A stretch of 64,000 bases of DNA from IMG/VR virus record IMGVR_UViG_3300027708_000026, positions 32,001 to 96,000 of that record; one strand, given 5' to 3'. The DNA comes from a virus. Positions 18,131 to 34,255 of this stretch are shown in pieces; the first letter of the stretch is position 1; every line of letters begins with the position of its first letter. A model generated the notes under the pieces. That model made no database searches. It saw only the letters and a list, made by a program, of their open reading frames with translations, and was not told where the DNA came from. The translations under genes and the position numbers were made by a program.

Positions 18131-19144
18131 ATGAGTCTGTTTAAGAAAGTTGCATGTTTTACCGATATACATTTTGGACTAAAATCAAATTCATCGACAC
18201 ATTTAAGAGATTGTGAGGAATTCGTAGACTGGTTTATTCAAGAAGCCAAGACCGCGGGGTGTGAAACTGCGATCTTCTTGGGCGACTGGAGTCACAATCG
18301 TAATAGTCTAAACTTATTCACACTGGACAGCAGTTTACGCTGCCTAGAAAAACTAGGTGCAGCATTTGAACAGTTCTTTTGGTTCCCAGGTAACCACGAT
18401 CTATTTTATAAAGACAAGCGTGACATTCATTCGAGTGCCTTTGGTCGGCACATTCCAGGCGTCACTGTTGTAGACAGTATATGGACCCGGGATGATGTCA
18501 CACTTGTACCTTGGCTAATAGGCGATGAGTGGAAGTCTATGAAAGACATCAAGAGCAAATATGTATTTGGTCACTTCGAATTACCCAAGTTCTTCATGAA
18601 CGCTATGGTACAAATGCCCGATCACGGTGAACTTAGAGCAGAGGATTTTAACGGCCCAGACTATATATTCAGTGGACACTTCCATAAACGACAAGAAAAC
18701 AACCGAGTGATCTACATTGGTAATGCATTTCCGCACAATTATAGTGATGCAGGGGATGATGAACGCGGGATGATGACATTAGAATGGGGCGGTGAGCCTA
18801 AATTTATTAATTGGTCCAACTGCCCCAAGTACAGATCTATCAAACTTAGCGATTTGATCGACCAAAAAGACACAATCATGAAGGGTAAGATGCATTTCAA
18901 AGTGAATCTAGACATAGATATCAGTTTTGAAGAAGCAAACTTCATCAAAGAAACGTTTATGAAAGGTTACAATATACGAGAGATTAGCCTTATACAAGAT
19001 AAAGTTAATTTAGAAGGCACTGCTGGGGAAATTTTAGATAGCACTTTTGAAAGTGTAGATCAAATTGTCACGGATAGTCTGGTCAATATCGAATCGGAAC
19101 AATTTGATAGATCAATGCTGTTAGAAATTTATAACGAACTATAA
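18131..19144 (+). CDS. Recombination endonuclease subunit gp47 (Mre11/SbcD metallophosphoesterase)
   Basis: DIHFG, GDWSH, GNHD, GHFE, SGHFH metallophosphoesterase motifs. Confidence 0.95.
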   Translation: MSLFKKVACFTDIHFGLKSNSSTHLRDCEEFVDWFIQEAKTAGCETAIFLGDWSHNRNSLNLFTLDSSLRCLEKLGAAFEQFFWFPGNHDLFYKDKRDIHSSAFGRHIPGVTVVDSIWTRDDVTLVPWLIGDEWKSMKDIKSKYVFGHFELPKFFMNAMVQMPDHGELRAEDFNGPDYIFSGHFHKRQENNRVIYIGNAFPHNYSDAGDDERGMMTLEWGGEPKFINWSNCPKYRSIKLSDLIDQKDTIMKGKMHFKVNLDIDISFEEANFIKETFMKGYNIREISLIQDKVNLEGTAGEILDSTFESVDQIVTDSLVNIESEQFDRSMLLEIYNEL

Positions 19145-20922
19145 TGTTTAAATTAAAAAATATCACTGCAAAAAACTTCATGAGTGTGGGCAATCAAACC
19201 CAGGCTGTGCAATTTGATAAAGAACTGCTTACTCTAGTGTTAGGTGCGAATCTAGATCTAGGGGGAGATGATACTGGCAGCAGGAACGGGACTGGAAAAA
19301 CTACCATTGTCAATGCATTGAGTTATGCATTATATGGGCAAGCATTAACAAACATCAAAAAAGAAAACTTAATCAACAAAATCAACGGTAAGAATATGTT
19401 AGTCACCGTTGAATTTGAAAAAGACGGGAATCATTATAGGATTGAACGCGGTCGCAAACCCAATGTACTTAAATTGTACGTCAATGATAATCAAATAAAA
19501 GACGACACCGCTGAAGATGACAGCCAAGGGGATAGCAGGGAAACACAAAAAGCCATCGAACAGATGTTAGGCATGAGTCACACCATGTTCAAGCATCTAG
19601 TGGCACTGAATACCTATACCGAACCCTTTTTAAGCATGCGGGCCGCAGATCAAAGGGAGATAATCGAACAACTTTTAGGCATTACCCTATTGAGTGAGAA
19701 GGCAGAGGCCTTAAAAACATCAGTCAAAGACACTAAAGATTCGATAGTATCCGAAAATGCCACTATCGAAGCCACTAAAAAAGCCAATGAGAACATACAG
19801 AAAAGCATTGACAGCTTGATCATACGCAGTAGTGCATGGGATGCCAAGCAGGAATCTGATATTTCTACCATGGTCAATAACATACACATCTTGAGTGAAG
19901 TTAACATCGAACAAGAATTAACATTGCACAGTCAGCTCAAACTATGGAATGAACACGATATTAAGATTCGAAATCTCAGTAAGCAGCGGGCAACTTTAGA
20001 TTCTGCACTAGGACAAGCTGAAAGAAGTGTTAAGAAGTATGAGAAGGAACTGGCAAGCCTGGAAAATAAGACTTGTCATGCTTGCGAACAGGAACTCCAC
20101 GATCATAAGCATGAAGAAATGTCTGCGCTGGCTCAGGCACAGTTAGACGAAGCGATGAAATACTTTGATAAAATATCTCAAGACTTACAAAAGATCGTAG
20201 ATGAGATCGGCAACGGGGATACGCCGCACAAACCGTTGACGTTTTATGACACTGAGGCAGAAGCATTAGAACATAAGAACAATTTAGATAGTCTCGAGAA
20301 GAGTTTGACCTCGAGGGCAGACGAAATCAATCCCTATGCTGAACAAGTCGATGAACTTAGAAGGACTGCCATACAAGAAGTGACATGGGATCGTATCAAC
20401 GAGTTGACTAGACTTAGAGATCATCAAGAATTCCTATTAAAACTACTGACCAATAAGGACAGTTTCATTCGTAAAAAGATCATCGATCAAAATCTAAGCT
20501 ATCTAAACAGACGACTGGGATACTATATCGATAAGTTGGGCCTGCCACACAGGGTAGTATTCCAGAATGACCTAACAGTTGAGATCACTCAGCTGGGACA
20601 AGATTTAGATTTTGATAATTTATCACGCGGAGAACGAAACAGATTGATATTATCAATGAGTTTTGCCTTCCGAGATGTATGGGAAGGTCTATATCAAGGC
20701 ATCAACTTGCTATTCATCGATGAATTAGTCGATGCTGGTATGGATGCCGCAGGTGTAGAAAGCGCCCTAGCTGTATTGAAAAAGATGGCTAGGGAAAGAA
20801 ACAAGAATATTTACTTGATAAGTCATAAGGATGAACTTATGGGTCGGGTCAATAGTGTATTAAGGGTAGTAAAAGAAAATGGATTCACAAGTTATTCCAG
20901 CAATGCAGAGTACGTCGACTGA
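19144..20922 (+). CDS. Recombination ATPase gp46 (Rad50/SbcC)
   Basis: Walker A GSRNGTGKTT, zinc-hook CHAC in coiled coil, signature LSRGE, Walker B LLFIDE, H-loop ISH. Confidence 0.95.
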   Translation: MFKLKNITAKNFMSVGNQTQAVQFDKELLTLVLGANLDLGGDDTGSRNGTGKTTIVNALSYALYGQALTNIKKENLINKINGKNMLVTVEFEKDGNHYRIERGRKPNVLKLYVNDNQIKDDTAEDDSQGDSRETQKAIEQMLGMSHTMFKHLVALNTYTEPFLSMRAADQREIIEQLLGITLLSEKAEALKTSVKDTKDSIVSENATIEATKKANENIQKSIDSLIIRSSAWDAKQESDISTMVNNIHILSEVNIEQELTLHSQLKLWNEHDIKIRNLSKQRATLDSALGQAERSVKKYEKELASLENKTCHACEQELHDHKHEEMSALAQAQLDEAMKYFDKISQDLQKIVDEIGNGDTPHKPLTFYDTEAEALEHKNNLDSLEKSLTSRADEINPYAEQVDELRRTAIQEVTWDRINELTRLRDHQEFLLKLLTNKDSFIRKKIIDQNLSYLNRRLGYYIDKLGLPHRVVFQNDLTVEITQLGQDLDFDNLSRGERNRLILSMSFAFRDVWEGLYQGINLLFIDELVDAGMDAAGVESALAVLKKMARERNKNIYLISHKDELMGRVNSVLRVVKENGFTSYSSNAEYVD

Positions 20923-21256
20923 AAAAACTCAAGTCTATAAAGATTTATACTCAGAATTTTTAGGCGACGTAGTACTACTGCATAACTATCATACAACATA
21001 TACAATACATACTGGGTTAGAAACATCGCAAAGATTTCGATCCCAGTGTATGAAAATGGGCAAGTTGTTAAGGAAACTGAGAACTGCTAGTGCAGAATCT
21101 TTCGAAGAACAACGACAAAATCGAAAAATTATGAAACGTAATCAAGCAGTTTATAACAAAACTAAACTTGCAGCTAGACGATTAAGAGGAAGTCAGCGTT
21201 CAGCGAATGCTGCTGCTAGAAGAGAGAAAGCAAATAACAAAGGAAATATAAAATGA
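20903..21256 (+). CDS. Basic hypothetical protein, possible diverged Hc1-like paralog (start 20903 or 20879)
   Basis: Overlaps gp46 end and next ORF start; K/R-rich C-terminal half; SQRFRSQCMKMGKLLRKLR loosely parallels GTRARKALGELSKAVKTRR of the next gene. Confidence 0.55.
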   Translation: MQSTSTEKTQVYKDLYSEFLGDVVLLHNYHTTYTIHTGLETSQRFRSQCMKMGKLLRKLRTASAESFEEQRQNRKIMKRNQAVYNKTKLAARRLRGSQRSANAAARREKANNKGNIK

Positions 21257-21450
21257 ATGATACCGCAACACAACTACAAGCACACTTCGACGAATTCTTA
21301 AAAGAAGACGCAAAGTTTACAGCAGGCAATGCTGCCGCAGGTACTCGCGCACGTAAGGCATTGGGTGAATTATCTAAAGCAGTCAAAACCCGTCGTAATG
21401 AAATCACTGCTGAGAAGAATGCTCGCAAGGAAGCTAAAGTAGCAAAATAA
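21253..21450 (+). CDS. Histone H1-like nucleoid protein, Hc1 family
   Basis: GNAAAGTRARKALGELSKAVKTRRNE matches the Hc1 pattern GNKAAxxRxRxxxxxLxKxxKxxR; AAGGA SD upstream. Confidence 0.75.
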   Translation: MNDTATQLQAHFDEFLKEDAKFTAGNAAAGTRARKALGELSKAVKTRRNEITAEKNARKEAKVAK

Positions 21451-21453
21451 TCG

Positions 21454-21882
21454 ATGACTTGGTACCACAAGGGTTCTATAGTTACAGAACTGCCTGAAGA
21501 TTGTGTGGGATTTGTTTATCTTATCTCATGCAATACTACAGGTAGACTCTATGTTGGTAAAAAATTAGCAAAATTTAGTCGAACGACCTACAAGACTGTG
21601 AAGTTGAAGAACGGCACAAAGAAGAAAAAGAAAATTAGAAGCAAAATAGATAGTGACTGGCAGGAATATTACGGGTCCAGTGCGGAACTTACCGCAGATA
21701 TAGAAACATTAGGCAAAGAAAATTTCACAAGAGAGATATTGCATTACTGTAAAAGTAAAGCAGAAACATCATACGTTGAGGCCCGAGAACAATTCGACCG
21801 CAAAGTATTAGAATCACAAGAATATTATAACGGACAGATCTCAGTTCGTGTCCATGGCTCCCATATTATAAACAAAATTTAG
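21454..21882 (+). CDS. Stand-alone GIY-YIG superfamily nuclease (catalytic domain only), 142 aa
   Basis: GFVYLI...LYVGKK (GIY-YIG), YYGSS, FTREIL, catalytic-type E in YVEAREQ and YYNG; contains a basic insertion KLKNGTKKKKKIRSK. Confidence 0.8.
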   Translation: MTWYHKGSIVTELPEDCVGFVYLISCNTTGRLYVGKKLAKFSRTTYKTVKLKNGTKKKKKIRSKIDSDWQEYYGSSAELTADIETLGKENFTREILHYCKSKAETSYVEAREQFDRKVLESQEYYNGQISVRVHGSHIINKI

Positions 21883-22320
21883 GCTCAGTTAATCGGTCAC
21901 AAGGCTCGCACCTGCTAATTTCGGGTGCCCGTATACCTGGATCTCGGATCACAGGGAGGGAAATCTCTTGCCGATAGGAGTACTCAACCACTATCCTTTA
22001 CAGGACGAGGATCGCAAATCTGCCGCGGTTTGGTTGTTTTAACAGTTTTAGGCAAAAGGAGGGGTAGTTGCCCCAAGTTTGCTAGCATGTTAGCGTATGT
22101 TAGTAAGCCGCCGTCATATAAAGACTGAGCTCGAGGTACCGGATGACCGCCTCTGTAACGCTCTAACGCTAAGTGACATGTGTTCGACTCGGATAATGTT
22201 TTTTACTTTGCCCGCTAGGGCAAAGTGTGACTGAACGATCTGGATAATATTAATTTCGTCTTCGACGAAGTAAGTGCTTCAAGCGACAGCGCCGAAGCAA
22301 ATGAGCTTTAGCTCATTTCA
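21883..22320 (+). ncRNA. Putative large structured non-coding RNA (~440 nt), family unknown
   Basis: Longest intergenic gap of the window, with >10 helices incl. G-U pairs, a GAAA tetraloop, long-range helices and a 7-bp pseudoknot (details in findings); strand inferred from G-U pairs, GNRA loop and context. Confidence 0.7.
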
Positions 22321-22328
22321 TATAAATA
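22321..22328 (+). promoter_or_regulatory. Perfect T4 late promoter TATAAATA
   Basis: Exact consensus, 26 nt upstream of ATG 22355 with AGGA SD. Confidence 0.8.
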
Positions 22329-22354
22329 AATTCATAACATATAGGATTAATGCA

Positions 22355-23536
22355 ATGCGCATCAATGACATTTTAACAGAAACACGATCTGATGAAGGTA
22401 TCGTTTCAGATATTGGAACTGGCGTAGGCAAAGCTGTCGGAGCAACTGCTAGAGGTGTTGGTGCCGTAGCTGGCGGAGTTCGAGGTGCATGGGATGCAGC
22501 TAAACAAGGATTCCAAGCAGGTAGAAATCTAGTAGGTGGCGGTGGAAGTTCTGCTGCATCAAATCCTGATATACAACGAGCCCATGATCTTAGAGTTCAA
22601 GCGGATCAACTAGATGGTGGAACTAGCGCACAACAAAATTATGCTGCGCCGGTAGCGAGTGGTGGATCGTCTAGAGTCGGACGTTCGGGATCAGGTGGTC
22701 AGTCTAGACCATATACAGGCGGCGGACAAAATACTACAGCTGGCAATGCTGCCCCCGCATCCAATACCGCTGCTCCTGCAACTAATGCAGCGGCCGCTCC
22801 CGCAGGTCCCGACGCAGCAATGCAAAAATTACAACAGGCACTTCAACACTTGAAAGGTACAGATGTTGAGCGAATCCGCACCATGTTGAAGAAACGTGCA
22901 GGCATCGCTGAAGGCATTGTGTCTAAAGTAGCTGGCGGCTTGGGCAAAATGGGACGCGGATATGTTGATGCTAAATCTGCATATCAGCAGGGGCGCGGCG
23001 GAGACATGACTCCTCAAGAAATTGATCTAGCCATTGCATCGATGCCCAAAGAGCAGGCAGCTGAGTTGCTGCAATTTTTTGATACATTACATCCAGCAGC
23101 CGCAGGTGGCCCTGCTGATTCGGCAGCACCAACAACTCCAGCGACATCTACTGCATCTACATCTACGCCGCCTGAGTCAACCCCTTCAGCACCTGAACCA
23201 ACTCCAGCGACATCTACTGCATCTACATCTACGCCGCCTGAGTCAACCCCTTCAGCACCTGAACCAACTCCAACACCACCAGGTAGCGCAGCAGGAACAA
23301 ACACAGGTAGTGGATTTCAAGCACCGGGTCGTGTTACACCAACTAATGCATCTTATAAATTAAACATGCCTAAAGCCCCGGCAACAACGCCTGCTGCTGC
23401 TTCGACTCCAGCATCAACTGTTCGACAAGTGGTTCCAAATCGACCTGCTCCAAAAATAAATGGATTACAAGTTCGCAACATGGCAGAAGGAAGGAAACTA
23501 CAAGTACACAGTAGTTTCTTAGGAATGGATCTTTAG
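22355..23536 (+). CDS. Low-complexity (G/A/P/T-rich) late protein, possible internal head protein; start reassigned from 22274 to 22355
   Basis: Late promoter and SD precede MRINDILTE at 22355; repeated EGIVS motif; Pro/Thr-rich tail. Confidence 0.7.
   Translation: MRINDILTETRSDEGIVSDIGTGVGKAVGATARGVGAVAGGVRGAWDAAKQGFQAGRNLVGGGGSSAASNPDIQRAHDLRVQADQLDGGTSAQQNYAAPVASGGSSRVGRSGSGGQSRPYTGGGQNTTAGNAAPASNTAAPATNAAAAPAGPDAAMQKLQQALQHLKGTDVERIRTMLKKRAGIAEGIVSKVAGGLGKMGRGYVDAKSAYQQGRGGDMTPQEIDLAIASMPKEQAAELLQFFDTLHPAAAGGPADSAAPTTPATSTASTSTPPESTPSAPEPTPATSTASTSTPPESTPSAPEPTPTPPGSAAGTNTGSGFQAPGRVTPTNASYKLNMPKAPATTPAAASTPASTVRQVVPNRPAPKINGLQVRNMAEGRKLQVHSSFLGMDL
23133..23272 (+). repeat. Perfect 66-bp in-frame tandem repeat (2 copies plus 8 nt)
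   Basis: caactccagcgacatctactgc...cctgaac at 23133 and 23199; encodes TPATSTASTSTPPESTPSAPEP twice. Confidence 0.95.
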
Positions 23537-33260: not shown

Positions 33261-33319
33261 AGCTTGCATTGGGCAAGTTTTATGCAGAAATCCAACTGCG
33301 TACGGCCTAGAACGCCGTG
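33261..33319 (+). promoter_or_regulatory. Structured 5' leader, three adjacent hairpins (putative cis-regulatory RNA)
   Basis: agcttgc/gcaagtt, tatgcag/ctgcgta, tacggc/gccgtg. Confidence 0.55.
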
Positions 33320-33343
33320 TTTACTTATTTTAGGAGAAACAAA

Positions 33344-34255
33344 ATGGGACGTCCAATTAAAAAGAAATTCTTTGGTAGTTTAACTACCCCTTACCAAAAT
33401 CATGCTACTGGCGGCAAAACTGGCGTTGGTGGTGAAGGTGTAGCATCAGTCACTATTTCAAACAGCGGTACATTTTATTCACAAGGCGCAGCCGTAACAT
33501 TTGGAGCACCAAATATTACTGGCGGCATCCGTGCAACTGGTACACCAATCGTGGGTACAGGCATCAATGTTGGTAAAATCATGGGATTCAATATCACTAA
33601 TGCTGGTTCTGGTTATACAGGAACTGTTAGCATATCTGTTACCACTGCAACCGGTGTTACAAGTGCAACAACAGGTACAAGCGGCGCTCAATCAGTTTAT
33701 CCAGCAACTACTACCGGCATTCAAGTTGGTATGCAAGTGTTTGGTGCTAACATCAGTGCAAGTGCTACATATGTCACTAGCATTTCAGGTAGCGTAGTCA
33801 ACATAACATGGCCAAATGCAGGAACAGTTAGTACCAGCGTTTTATTCCGTGATGTAGGTGCAAGTTTCGCAAGCTCAGCAGTTGGGTTAACTAGTAATCG
33901 TCAAGATGCAATCACTATCGTTTCTTACTTGTCAACAGCTAGTCAATCACGTAGCGGCGGCGATATTATGAAACAAGAATCTAGCCGTAGATATCTAGTT
34001 CAAAATTCTGATGGTAAAGGTATTTGTACATTGAGTACTGGTACACTGACAGCAGGTAAAATGCATATTATTGCTACAGACTTTGGCGGTGCAACTTATT
34101 ATGTAACCAAGCTAACTGCTCATAAAGCCACTGTTGCTAACAGAACCAGCACTAGTACAGCTTATCTATCCACTGGTAGAGTCGCTAAGTGGACGCTTGG
34201 CGCTGCAACTGGTACAGGTGTCAACACCGTGATCAGTCTAGCTCATACTATCTAA
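33344..34255 (+). CDS. Virion structural protein following the capsid gene (possible decoration protein); start reassigned from 33317 to 33344
   Basis: AGGAG SD then MGRPIKKKFFG; T/G/S-rich beta-type sequence; own promoter and terminator. Confidence 0.7.
   Translation: MGRPIKKKFFGSLTTPYQNHATGGKTGVGGEGVASVTISNSGTFYSQGAAVTFGAPNITGGIRATGTPIVGTGINVGKIMGFNITNAGSGYTGTVSISVTTATGVTSATTGTSGAQSVYPATTTGIQVGMQVFGANISASATYVTSISGSVVNITWPNAGTVSTSVLFRDVGASFASSAVGLTSNRQDAITIVSYLSTASQSRSGGDIMKQESSRRYLVQNSDGKGICTLSTGTLTAGKMHIIATDFGGATYYVTKLTAHKATVANRTSTSTAYLSTGRVAKWTLGAATGTGVNTVISLAHTI

What the first reader, a model, noticed from the sequence alone, without database searches (positions are those of the whole stretch)
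21454..22320. Minimal GIY-YIG nuclease followed immediately by a ~440-nt pseudoknotted RNA: candidate RNA-associated nuclease system
Seen: the structure starts at the first base after the TAG. Helices: gctcagtt 21883-90 / gactgagc 22123-30 (long range); atcggt 21892-97 / gccgat 21970-75 closing three hairpins (gcacctg 21908-14 / cgggtgc 21922-28; cctggatc 21936-43 / gatc-a-cagg 21947-55; gagg-GAAA-tctc 21956-67); caacca 21985-90 / tggttg 22031-36 closing tcct/agga and gatcgc/gcggtt; ggggt/gcccc 22061-74; 11-bp tttgctagcat 22078-88 / atgttagtaag 22097-107 whose loop ttagcgt 22090-96 is perfectly complementary to acgctaa 22166-72 (pseudoknot); gaggt/gcctc 22133-53; actttgccc-gcta-gggcaaagt 22205-26; three more hairpins 22254-22318, then a late promoter. 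G-U pairs and a GNRA loop argue for RNA rather than DNA cruciforms. The 142-aa protein has only the catalytic domain plus a lysine-rich insertion and lacks the C-terminal DNA-binding modules of homing enzymes such as I-TevI. Known analogy: IscB/TnpB use an adjacent structured RNA for targeting. Inference: the RNA is a scaffold/guide or ribozyme partner of the nuclease; I cannot match it to an RNA family I know.
Basis: partly seen in the sequence, partly recalled or inferred. Interest (0 to 1): 0.9.

Follow-up and report, generated by a model that had tools for sequence, protein, structure and literature searches.

The report
Extended Polynucleobacter-1 twin-box phage RNA
The gene-free stretch behind a small nuclease gene of this uncultured freshwater T4-like phage encodes a real, roughly 430-base knotted non-coding RNA; its first third is the catalogued but unexplained Polynucleobacter-1 motif, and the evidence argues against it being a guide or partner of the nuclease.

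Summary
The RNA is real. Positions 21903-22039 match Rfam RF01718 (Polynucleobacter-1) at 113.8 bits against a cut-off of 37. A 103-pair model covering 21892-22317, with three pseudoknot helices, is 90% paired across 48 relatives, against 36-44% in slid controls.

The long-range closing helix and the gagg-GAAA-tctc hairpin do not.

The uncatalogued 3' part contains a doubly knotted domain that weakly resembles cow-rumen-2. It also contains two always-identical 7-nt boxes (GGATAAT here) on either side of a hairpin.

The 142-aa protein is an intact GIY-YIG enzyme of a large family (PF19835) whose normal size is about 140 aa.

The RNA and the gene are neighbours in more than 150 loci, and a 2010 paper already noted this. 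They also occur apart:
- A complete 162-kb phage genome and several cultured phages have the gene without the RNA.
- Two contigs carry a PD-(D/E)XK nuclease in its place.
- One bacterial MAG has the motif and no such gene.
- Box words change between nearly identical nucleases.

My reading is an independent phage RNA gene at the end of an early operon. What reads the boxes is unknown. This scan has reported the same family before on other DNA.

The parts
21454..21882 (+). GIY-YIG nuclease gene, 142 aa. It is the conserved neighbour of the RNA, not shown to be a functional part of it.
   Evidence: Pfam PF19835, E 1.2e-32, covering the full profile. The AF2 model has pLDDT 95.9. The top four structural matches are all GIY-YIG enzymes: I-TevI catalytic domain Z 8.4, PD-T4-3 Z 6.8, UvrC N-domain Z 5.5, T4 EndoII Z 5.3. 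Y22, Y33, G35, E109 and N126 are invariant and R93 nearly so in 45 relatives. It is a homolog of P-SSM2 PSSM2_218 (36% identity, E 3e-20).
21892..22040 (+). Domain 1: the Polynucleobacter-1 motif plus a 5' leader. The leader forms pseudoknot PK1 (21892-97 with 21970-75). Helices: P1 21908-13/21923-28, P2 21937-43/21947-54, P3 21965-68/21977-80, P4 21985-90/22031-36, P5 21991/22007 and 21995-96/22003-04, P6 22010-15/22025-30.
   Evidence: RF01718 at 113.8 bits (gathering score 37), model positions 1-141, at 21903-22039. PK1 pairs covary, for example 21893/21974 as UA18 AU11 GC9 GU2 and 21895/21972 as GC30 AU13. The same leader-loop pairing (taccg/cggta) can be read in the MAG copy L115.
22056..22176 (+). 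Domain 2: an uncatalogued, doubly pseudoknotted domain. Helices: P7 22061-64/22071-74, P8 22077-88/22097-108, PK2 22090-96/22166-72, P9 (crossing) 22113-17/22143-47, P10 22127-30/22160-63, P11 22133-36/22150-53.
   Evidence: Covariation: P8 has 11 of 12 pairs changed on both sides, PK2 7 of 7, P10 4 of 4, P9 3 of 5. There is a weak full-length match to cow-rumen-2 RF02947 (22.2 bits, E 0.21). The same weak match recurs at the same domain in three divergent relatives at 18-20.6 bits.
22188..22198 (+). Box 1: CTC-GGATAAT-G. The box word occupies 22191-22197 and follows a GUGAC element at 22174-78.
   Evidence: Identical, not complementary, covariation with box 2: 22191/22242 as AA24 GG24, 22192/22243 as GG39 AA6 CC3. 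The pattern CTC-N7-(30 to 75 nt)-TCT-same N7 occurs in all 75 full-length loci.
22205..22226 (+). Hairpin P12, lying between the two boxes.
   Evidence: 9-bp stem with a gcta loop in the window. It is present in all relatives with shifted register, so only 63% of cells pair in my fixed alignment.
22239..22249 (+). Box 2: TCT-GGATAAT-A. The box word occupies 22242-22248 and follows GUGUGAC at 22225-31.
   Evidence: The spacing between box starts is 47-63 nt in 112 distinct loci and shows no 3-nt periodicity.
22255..22317 (+). A train of three hairpins: P13 22255-60/64-69, P14 22276-80/94-98 with 22283-84/89-90, and P15 22300-06/11-17. This is the probable 3' end of the RNA.
   Evidence: The helices covary, for example 22279/22295 as UA29 CG15, 22280/22294 as CG22 UA20 and 22305/22312 as GC27 AU14. 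The simple scan does not call a canonical terminator here. This part also occurs behind the alternative type B RNA.
22322..22329 (+). T4-type late promoter TATAAATA for the next gene. That gene starts at ATG 22355, with AGGA at 22343-46.
   Evidence: Read directly from the sequence. TATAAATA lies 423-496 nt behind the GIY stop in 38 of 79 relatives, with near variants in others.

Best explanation
21892-22317 (+) is a gene for a large multi-domain non-coding RNA of the 'extended Polynucleobacter-1 / twin-box' family of uncultured T4-like phages.

Shown:
- A compact 5' body made of two pseudoknotted domains.
- A module in which two identical 7-nt words, each 3' of a GUGAC element, lie on either side of a hairpin.
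- A train of three hairpins ending 4 nt before a late promoter.

Inferred:
- The RNA is made early in infection as the tail of the gp47-gp46-...-GIY operon transcript. No promoter is conserved upstream, and the RNA starts 10-14 nt behind whichever ORF comes last.
- It is stabilised by its knotted body and 3' hairpins.
- It acts on its own, in trans, by presenting the same short word twice to a sequence-reading partner. That partner could be a dimeric or two-site protein or a nucleic acid. It is not encoded next to the RNA and its specificity changes quickly between related phages.

The GIY-YIG gene is a conserved syntenic neighbour and most likely a DNA nuclease of phage DNA metabolism. It is not the RNA's effector.
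For: RNA identity and reality:
- RF01718 at 113.8 bits.
- 103-pair model: 90.4% of cells paired, against 77.1% in shuffles and 36-44% in slid controls. 72 pairs change on both sides. Covariation score 0.395 against 0.164 (shuffled) and 0.05-0.08 (slid), with 0 of 500 shuffles as high.
- No conserved ORF.
- G-U pairs fix the + strand.

Modularity:
- Domain 1 occurs alone in a MAG.
- Domain 2 resembles a separate Rfam motif.
- The twin-box plus hairpin module also follows an unrelated roughly 300-nt RNA body (type B) in 80 loci.

Position at the end of the operon:
- The RNA directly follows GIY in the window.
- It follows a PD-(D/E)XK ORF in L023.
- It follows a 151-aa ORF behind a radical-SAM gene in L013.
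- It follows a Zn-finger ORF in half of the type B loci.

Twin boxes:
- They are identical in all 75 full-length loci and use 11 different words across both RNA types.

Independence from GIY:
Against: - No transcript data.
- No reader of the boxes was found, so action in trans is a guess.
- The simple scan sees neither a promoter nor a canonical terminator.
- A nuclease gene (GIY-YIG, or PD-(D/E)XK in its place) stands upstream of both RNA types in nearly all loci. That is more persistent than I would expect for a random neighbour and keeps a functional link possible.
Confidence: 0.6

Rival explanations
1. RNA-associated nuclease system. The RNA would scaffold or guide the GIY-YIG enzyme, as omega-RNA does for IscB and TnpB, with the variable twin boxes serving as a guide.
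For: - The RNA begins 10 nt behind the nuclease stop codon.
- The adjacency holds in more than 150 loci and for two different RNA bodies.
- Where GIY is missing, another nuclease (PDDEXK_15) sits in the same slot.
- The boxes are variable words at conserved boundaries.
- The protein has a lysine-rich beta-hairpin insertion.
Against: - A complete 162-kb phage genome with a 76%-identical GIY has no such RNA.
- P-SSM2, Melnitz, BUCT-ZZ01 and a Variovorax phage also lack it.
- A MAG has domain 1 but no PF19835 gene.
- Other ORFs are often inserted between the gene and the RNA.
- In L009 the RNA is 95-98% identical while GIY is 73%.
- Box words differ between GIY proteins at least 93% identical.
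- No complement of the box was found within 4 kb in 117 loci, nor at a co-varying place in seven contigs.
- Seven nucleotides is short for a guide.
Confidence: 0.04
2. A cis-acting 3'-UTR and insulator. The element would stabilise the early operon mRNA against 3' exonucleases and separate early read-through from the late promoter, with no function in trans.
For: - It always lies at the operon end just before TATAAATA.
- No promoter of its own is conserved.
- The hairpin train is shared with type B loci.
Against: - About 300 nt of knotted structure with invariant junction nucleotides, conserved better than the flanking proteins, is far more than mRNA protection needs.
- Domain 1 also occurs in a bacterial MAG in another context.
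- Identical co-varying boxes are not explained.
Confidence: 0.15
3. A ligand-sensing or catalytic RNA. Domain 1 and/or domain 2 would be an aptamer or ribozyme, for example processing the transcript or sensing a metabolite.
For: - Multi-stem junctions and three pseudoknots, with invariant unpaired nucleotides such as ACAGGGA-GGAAA and GGUACCGG..ACCGCC.
- Weinberg et al. marked 'switch: ?' for the motif.
Against: - It lies downstream of genes and upstream of an independent promoter, so there is no expression platform.
- No match to any ribozyme or riboswitch family in Rfam, even at E up to 10.
Confidence: 0.1
4. The twin-box part works as DNA: iterons of an origin, a recombination or deletion site, or the target of a homing nuclease.
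For: - Direct repeats on either side of a palindrome.
- Identical, not complementary, covariation.
- Two nuclease families alternate next door.
- GIY looks horizontally mobile: it is 76% identical in a phage whose gp46 is only 27% identical.
Against: - No turn in GC skew at 22.2 kb.
- Only two copies, and the word is not enriched in the genome.
- The hairpins of this part show G-U-containing compensatory changes on the + strand.
- No empty or deleted sites were seen among 112 loci.
Confidence: 0.08

Closest known systems
Polynucleobacter-1 RNA motif (Rfam RF01718; Weinberg et al. 2010, Genome Biol 11:R31, PMC2864571)
   Same: 21903-22039 matches the whole 141-position model at 113.8 bits. The freshwater origin is the same. 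The gene context the authors described is also the same: downstream of GOS11034 / PSSM2_218-like genes, which are the GIY-YIG family here.
   Different: - The published motif is about 140 nt.
- Its authors found it in no sequenced purified phage; here it lies in an IMG/VR virus record with T4-like genes.
- It has no assigned function.
- Here it is only the first third of a roughly 430-nt RNA.
- The extra parts are a leader pseudoknot outside the model, a second knotted domain, twin boxes and a hairpin train.
cow-rumen-2 RNA (Rfam RF02947)
   Same: The same order of conserved elements: a hairpin with a UUAGC loop, then AGCCGCC, GGAUGACC and UAAG. The alignments are full-length, in the window and in three divergent relatives, always at domain 2.
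   Different: Scores are 18-22 bits against a gathering score of 66. The control genomes also give weak hits. This is a resemblance, not membership.
IscB/TnpB omega-RNAs (e.g. HEARO, RF02033)
   Same: A large structured RNA immediately 3' of a small nuclease gene.
   Different: - No RuvC or HNH effector and no transposon ends.
- No strict co-occurrence of gene and RNA.
- No long guide and no target found.
- No Rfam match.
Large ornate phage-associated RNAs (GOLLD, ROOL)
   Same: Several hundred nucleotides, multi-domain, pseudoknotted, carried by phages, function unknown. This comparison rests on my own knowledge of those families.
   Different: No sequence or covariance-model match. Those RNAs lie near tRNA genes. 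Twin boxes are not described for them.
GIY-YIG homing endonucleases (I-TevI, T4 Seg proteins) and T4 endonuclease II
   Same: The catalytic fold and residues match: I-TevI Z 8.4, EndoII Z 5.3, Pfam SegE_GIY-YIG. Like EndoII, it is a stand-alone enzyme of about 140 aa.
   Different: - No C-terminal DNA-binding domain.
- The whole family is 130-160 aa.
- No sequence-level match to any solved structure.
T4 gene 60 ribosomal bypass cassette
   Same: Two matched words about 50 nt apart around a hairpin. Positions 4-6 of every box word read UAA or UGA.
   Different: - No ORF enters box 1.
- Spacing of 47-63 nt without 3-nt periodicity.
- The second box is also followed by a stop.

Membership tests
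Polynucleobacter-1 RNA (RF01718) | Covariance-model score at or above the gathering score (37 bits) over the full model | tested here: met
   113.8 bits, model positions 1-141, at 21903-22039
Polynucleobacter-1 RNA (RF01718) | The model's helices are kept by compensatory changes in relatives | tested here: met
   P1, P2, P4 and P6 each have 4-5 pairs changed on both sides and are 86-100% paired
Polynucleobacter-1 RNA (RF01718) | Published context: downstream of GOS11034 / PSSM2_218-like genes | tested here: met
   The supplement text. PSSM2_218 is 36% identical to the window GIY, E 3e-20
cow-rumen-2 RNA (RF02947) | Score at or above the gathering score (66 bits) | tested here: not met
   22.2 bits in the window and 18-20.6 bits in relatives
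GIY-YIG nuclease superfamily | Profile match, the GIY and YIG motifs, and the catalytic Arg, Glu and Asn | tested here: met
   PF19835 at 1.2e-32. Y22, Y33, G35, E109 and N126 invariant and R93 nearly so
GIY-YIG nuclease superfamily | The GIY-YIG alpha/beta fold | tested here: met
   Model pLDDT 95.9. The top four structural matches are I-TevI, PD-T4-3, UvrC and EndoII at Z 8.4-5.3
Free-standing homing endonuclease (Seg / I-TevI type) | A C-terminal DNA-binding module joined to the catalytic domain | tested here: not met
   142 aa is filled by the 123-position catalytic profile. Relatives are typically 130-160 aa
Free-standing homing endonuclease (Seg / I-TevI type) | Sporadic presence among close relatives and signs of mobility | tested here: inconclusive
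   Against mobility: the gene is present in nearly all related loci. For mobility: it is replaced by PDDEXK_15 in L023 and L126. In L009 it is 73% identical beside a 97%-identical gp46. It is 76% identical in a phage whose gp46 is 27% identical
RNA-guided nuclease with adjacent guide RNA (IscB/TnpB-like) | Obligate co-occurrence of the nuclease gene and the RNA | tested here: not met
   The gene occurs without the RNA in a complete genome and in cultured phages. The RNA occurs without the gene in L023, L126 and MAG G001
RNA-guided nuclease with adjacent guide RNA (IscB/TnpB-like) | A variable guide segment with a complementary target | tested here: inconclusive
   Variable 7-nt twin boxes exist. 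No complement was found nearby or at a co-varying genomic site. Host genomes are unknown
RNA-guided nuclease with adjacent guide RNA (IscB/TnpB-like) | The protein binds the RNA and cleavage depends on it | not testable with these tools
   Needs biochemistry
Group I intron carrying a homing endonuclease ORF | An intron core match and a split host gene | tested here: not met
   No RF00028 hit at E up to 10. The flanking ORFs are complete, separate genes, and a late promoter intervenes

The most novel reading that the evidence does not exclude
The twin boxes are a programmable two-site code, and the RNA works together with whichever nuclease occupies the upstream slot (GIY-YIG or PD-(D/E)XK). 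The module would be an RNA-directed targeting or anti-defence system of T4-like phages, with a target in the host that I could not search. A milder version of the idea is that the RNA alone is a programmable decoy or guide for an external reader. I put that version at about 0.3.
Probability: 0.04. Interest if true: 0.9.

Novelty: new variant of a known kind. Interest (0 to 1): 0.55.

Why it matters
Polynucleobacter-1 has been an orphan motif since 2010. This work shows four things about it:
- It is the 5' domain of a roughly 430-nt, triply knotted RNA.
- That RNA is carried by T4-like phages.
- It ends in a module that also closes an unrelated second RNA body found in 80 further loci.
- That module carries one fast-changing 7-nt word twice.

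These points turn a catalogue entry into a testable object. Two identical words that co-vary imply a base-specific reader, and finding it would reveal what a widespread class of environmental phages uses this RNA for. The work also removes a tempting false lead, that of an RNA-guided GIY-YIG nuclease.

Tried and rejected
No better than shuffled columns.
- **Coding region.** No conserved ORF.
- **Group I intron or any other Rfam family.** For the 3' two thirds, nothing beyond the weak cow-rumen-2 match. Nothing at all for type B.
- **tRNA or tmRNA.** None found.
- **Own sigma-70 promoter or canonical terminator.** Not found by the simple scan. Different upstream ORFs share no promoter-like sequence.
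- **T4 EndoII orthology by sequence.** No PDB match by phmmer or by profile search. EndoII appears only as a fold match at Z 5.3.
- **Intramolecular partner of the boxes.** No Watson-Crick co-varying column.
- **Complement of the box in cis.** 28 occurrences in 644 kb around 117 loci, with no positional peak.
- **Box word as a genome-wide motif.** GGATAAT occurs 26 times in G000, no more than the other words.
- **Co-varying complement or third copy across seven contigs (49-332 kb) carrying six different words.**
  - One 'third copy' pair was seen, G009/G011, inside a coding region about 2.2 kb downstream.
  - The window does not share it.
  - The 117-locus histogram shows no peak at that distance.
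  - I judge it a coincidence.
- **Box tracking the GIY sequence.** No.
- **Gene-60-type ribosome hop.** Every word reads NNA followed by UAA or UGA, but there is no entering ORF and no 3-nt periodicity of spacing.
- **Replication origin.** No skew signal.
- **Bacterial genomes.** The pattern scan gave five hits. About seven are expected by chance, by my own arithmetic, and only one (L115) is a true RF01718 match.
- **Holliday-junction resolvase idea for GIY.** No Endonuclease_7 gene in G000, but the record is only 41% complete, so this says nothing.
Full report
**Setting.** The window is bases 32001-96000 of a 144,907-bp IMG/VR virus record. The genes around the finding are T4-like:
- a gp47-like phosphoesterase at 18131-19144;
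- a gp46-like SMC/AAA ATPase at 19144-20922;
- a 125-aa ORF;
- a 65-aa Hc1 histone-like ORF at 21253-21450;
- the 142-aa ORF at 21454-21882.

A gene-free stretch runs from 21883 to the late-promoter word TATAAATA at 22322-29. The next gene follows, with AGGA at 22343-46 and ATG at 22355.

**The observation.**
- Rfam's covariance models place Polynucleobacter-1 (RF01718) at 21903-22039. The score is 113.8 bits against a gathering score of 37, over the full model.
- I collected relatives in two independent ways. A scan of viral contigs for a conserved RNA pattern gave 27 loci. A scan for relatives of the protein found 583, of which 80 were kept.
- The whole roughly 440-nt stretch, not only the Rfam part, is alignable at 65-98% identity in most of them.
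- No reading frame is conserved.
- I built a 103-pair structure from RNAalifold and a mutual-information scan. On 48 sequences it is 90.4% paired, against 77.1% in column shuffles and 36-44% when partners are slid.
- 72 pairs change on both sides, and the covariation score is 0.395 against 0.164 (shuffled) and 0.05-0.08 (slid), with 0 of 500 shuffles as high.
- Frequent G-U pairs fix the + strand.
- The window sequence folds at -146.4 kcal/mol, z = -2.95.
- Two helices fail: the long-range 21883-90/22123-30 and gagg-GAAA-tctc.
- The true partners are 22127-30 with 22160-63, and 21965-68 with 21977-80.
- A third crossing helix, 22113-17/22143-47, was missed.

**Anatomy.**
- Domain 1 (21892-22040) is Polynucleobacter-1 plus the leader pseudoknot.
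- Domain 2 (22056-22176) is a nested double pseudoknot that is not in Rfam. Its only resemblance is a weak but full-length and reproducible match to cow-rumen-2. The score is 22.2 bits here and 18-20.6 bits at the same domain in three divergent relatives, against a cut-off of 66.
- Next come two copies of a 7-nt word (GGATAAT, at 22191-97 and 22242-48). Each follows a GUGAC element, and they lie on either side of hairpin 22205-26.
- The two copies co-vary identically, not as complements: 22191/22242 as AA24 GG24, and 22192/22243 as GG39 AA6 CC3.
- The pattern CTC-N7-(30 to 75 nt)-TCT-same N7 occurs in all 75 full-length loci.
- Three covarying hairpins (22255-22317) end the element just before the late promoter.

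**A second RNA in the same slot.**
- Loci L042, L079 and L106 have GIY but no domain 1 or domain 2.
- They carry another conserved roughly 300-nt non-coding body with no Rfam match, followed by the same twin-box, hairpin and hairpin-train module.
- A 24-nt exact word from that body finds 80 viral contigs.
- GIY is upstream in 75 of 76 evaluable loci. In half it is directly upstream; in the other half an 85-93 aa Zn-finger-like ORF lies between.
- Twin boxes follow in 74 of 77 evaluable loci, with the words ACATGAA, ACATAAA, GCATAAT and GCATGAA.
- The twin-box module is therefore the constant part and the 5' body is exchangeable.

**The protein.**
- It matches PF19835 (SegE_GIY-YIG) over the whole profile.
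- The family is very large: more than 8000 clusters at 90% identity, and about 2010 at 50% identity with E up to 0.001. Members are typically 130-160 aa.
- It occurs in 521 phage records, mostly cyanophages, usually mislabelled 'NAD synthetase'.
- The catalytic Tyr, Tyr, Arg, Glu and Asn are conserved.
- An AlphaFold model (pLDDT 95.9) shows the lysine-rich insertion as a beta-hairpin.
- The four best matches among 48,161 PDB representatives are all GIY-YIG enzymes: I-TevI catalytic domain Z 8.4, PD-T4-3 Z 6.8, UvrC Z 5.5 and T4 EndoII Z 5.3.
- 'Minimal' is the normal state of this family, not a truncation.

**Is the RNA the nuclease's partner?**

The adjacency is real and already published. 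The supplement of Weinberg et al. 2010 says most Polynucleobacter-1 RNAs lie downstream of genes of family GOS11034, related to PSSM2_218 of cyanophage P-SSM2. PSSM2_218 is a homolog of this GIY protein at 36% identity, E 3e-20.

The two parts nevertheless separate in both directions.

The gene occurs without the RNA in:
- P-SSM2, where the next ORF abuts the gene;
- Melnitz, BUCT-ZZ01 and a Variovorax phage;
- twelve loci where a 75-81% identical GIY sits in another context;
- above all, a complete 161,882-bp genome with terminal repeats and a 76%-identical GIY. It has none of the three domains, no type B core and no twin-box candidate.

The RNA occurs without the gene in:
- L023 (type A) and L126 (type B), which have a 170-aa PDDEXK_15 nuclease in the GIY position;
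- L013, which has a radical-SAM gene and a 151-aa ORF between GIY and the RNA;
- a 5.6-Mb MAG, which has domain 1 at 93.5 bits, leader pseudoknot included, but no PF19835 gene.

There are also recombination breaks between the two. L009 shares a 95-98% identical RNA and a 97% identical gp46 with the window, but its GIY is only 73% identical. GIY proteins at least 93% identical carry GGATAAT, AGATAAT or GAATAAT.

What is constant is the position at the end of the operon, 10-14 nt behind whichever ORF comes last. The identity of that ORF is not constant. The recurrence of a nuclease in the slot is the one fact that keeps a link conceivable, so I leave that reading 4%.

**What reads the boxes?** I could not find out.
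- No column of the RNA pairs with them.
- Their complement is not found at any preferred place within 4 kb in 117 loci.
- The word is not enriched in the phage genome.
- Seven contigs of 49-332 kb with six different words share no co-varying complement or third copy. The single suggestive pair is absent from the window.
- All 11 words read NNA followed by UAA or UGA, which recalls the take-off site of T4 gene 60. However, the spacing (47-63 nt) has no codon periodicity and no ORF enters.
- There is no GC-skew signal for an origin.

**Verdict.** This is a real RNA gene. It belongs to a known family for its first third and to an uncatalogued extended architecture for the rest.

My committed reading is an early-made, self-stabilised, trans-acting RNA that shows one short word twice to an external, fast-evolving reader. 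Only the structure, strand, modularity and box identity are shown. Transcription, stability and action in trans are inferred.

**Earlier notes of this scan.** The scan has reported the same family repeatedly on other genomes. I reached the twin boxes and the RF01718 match before reading those notes, and they agree with what I found.

Noticed in passing
window 33262-33346 (+): Rfam freshwater-2 RNA (RF02980) at 77.6 bits against a gathering score of 49.9. It is a second catalogued orphan motif in the same phage.
   Followed up: no
L042:3680-3990, L106:3523-3840, and 80 loci L124-L203: A second conserved roughly 300-nt non-coding RNA body ('type B', no Rfam match). It occupies the same slot behind GIY and is followed by the same twin-box module, with words such as ACATGAA.
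   Followed up: partly
L023:4127-4642 and L126 (170-aa ORF ending 237 nt before the RNA core): A PDDEXK_15 nuclease (PF24608, 1.1e-25; PHROG 'RusA-like resolvase') replaces the GIY-YIG gene at the same position, in one type A locus and one type B locus. This is either non-orthologous replacement of a nuclease or a hot spot for nuclease genes.
   Followed up: partly
L042:3423-3680, L106:3242-3523: An 85-93 aa ORF with a CxxC...C Zn-finger-like motif and no family match. It is inserted between GIY and the RNA in about half of the type B loci.
   Followed up: no
G014 (L251-L259), GIY at 366-791: A complete 162-kb phage genome shares a 76%-identical GIY protein with the window's phage, but its gp46 is only 27% identical. 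The GIY gene appears to move between distant phages or is under unusually strong constraint.
   Followed up: partly
window 22191-22197 and 22242-22248; all box words: In all 11 box words seen, positions 4-6 are TAA or TGA and position 3 is A (NNA-URA-N). Translation does not explain this, and it remains unexplained.
   Followed up: yes
window 21994/22006: A non-Watson-Crick co-varying pair in P5 (T/C in 34 sequences, C/T in 14). It looks like an A.C mismatch swapping sides with an A-U pair.
   Followed up: no
window 22355-23536 (+): The late gene behind the RNA encodes a low-complexity Ala/Gly/Pro/Thr-rich protein with a perfect internal repeat (TPATSTASTSTPPESTPSAPEP, twice). It has no family match and diverges fast between relatives (46% identity in L009).
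   Followed up: no
window 21253-21450 (+): A 65-aa Hc1 (chlamydial histone H1-like, PF07432, 4.4e-13) gene lies directly upstream of GIY. It is present in some relatives and absent in others.
   Followed up: no
L006:625-1130 and the L008, L010, L014, L018, L029 and L030 class: A divergent subtype with a partial domain 1 and a different middle domain that still contains GGTACC..ACCGCC. Its twin boxes read AGGATAAT and have different flanks.
   Followed up: partly
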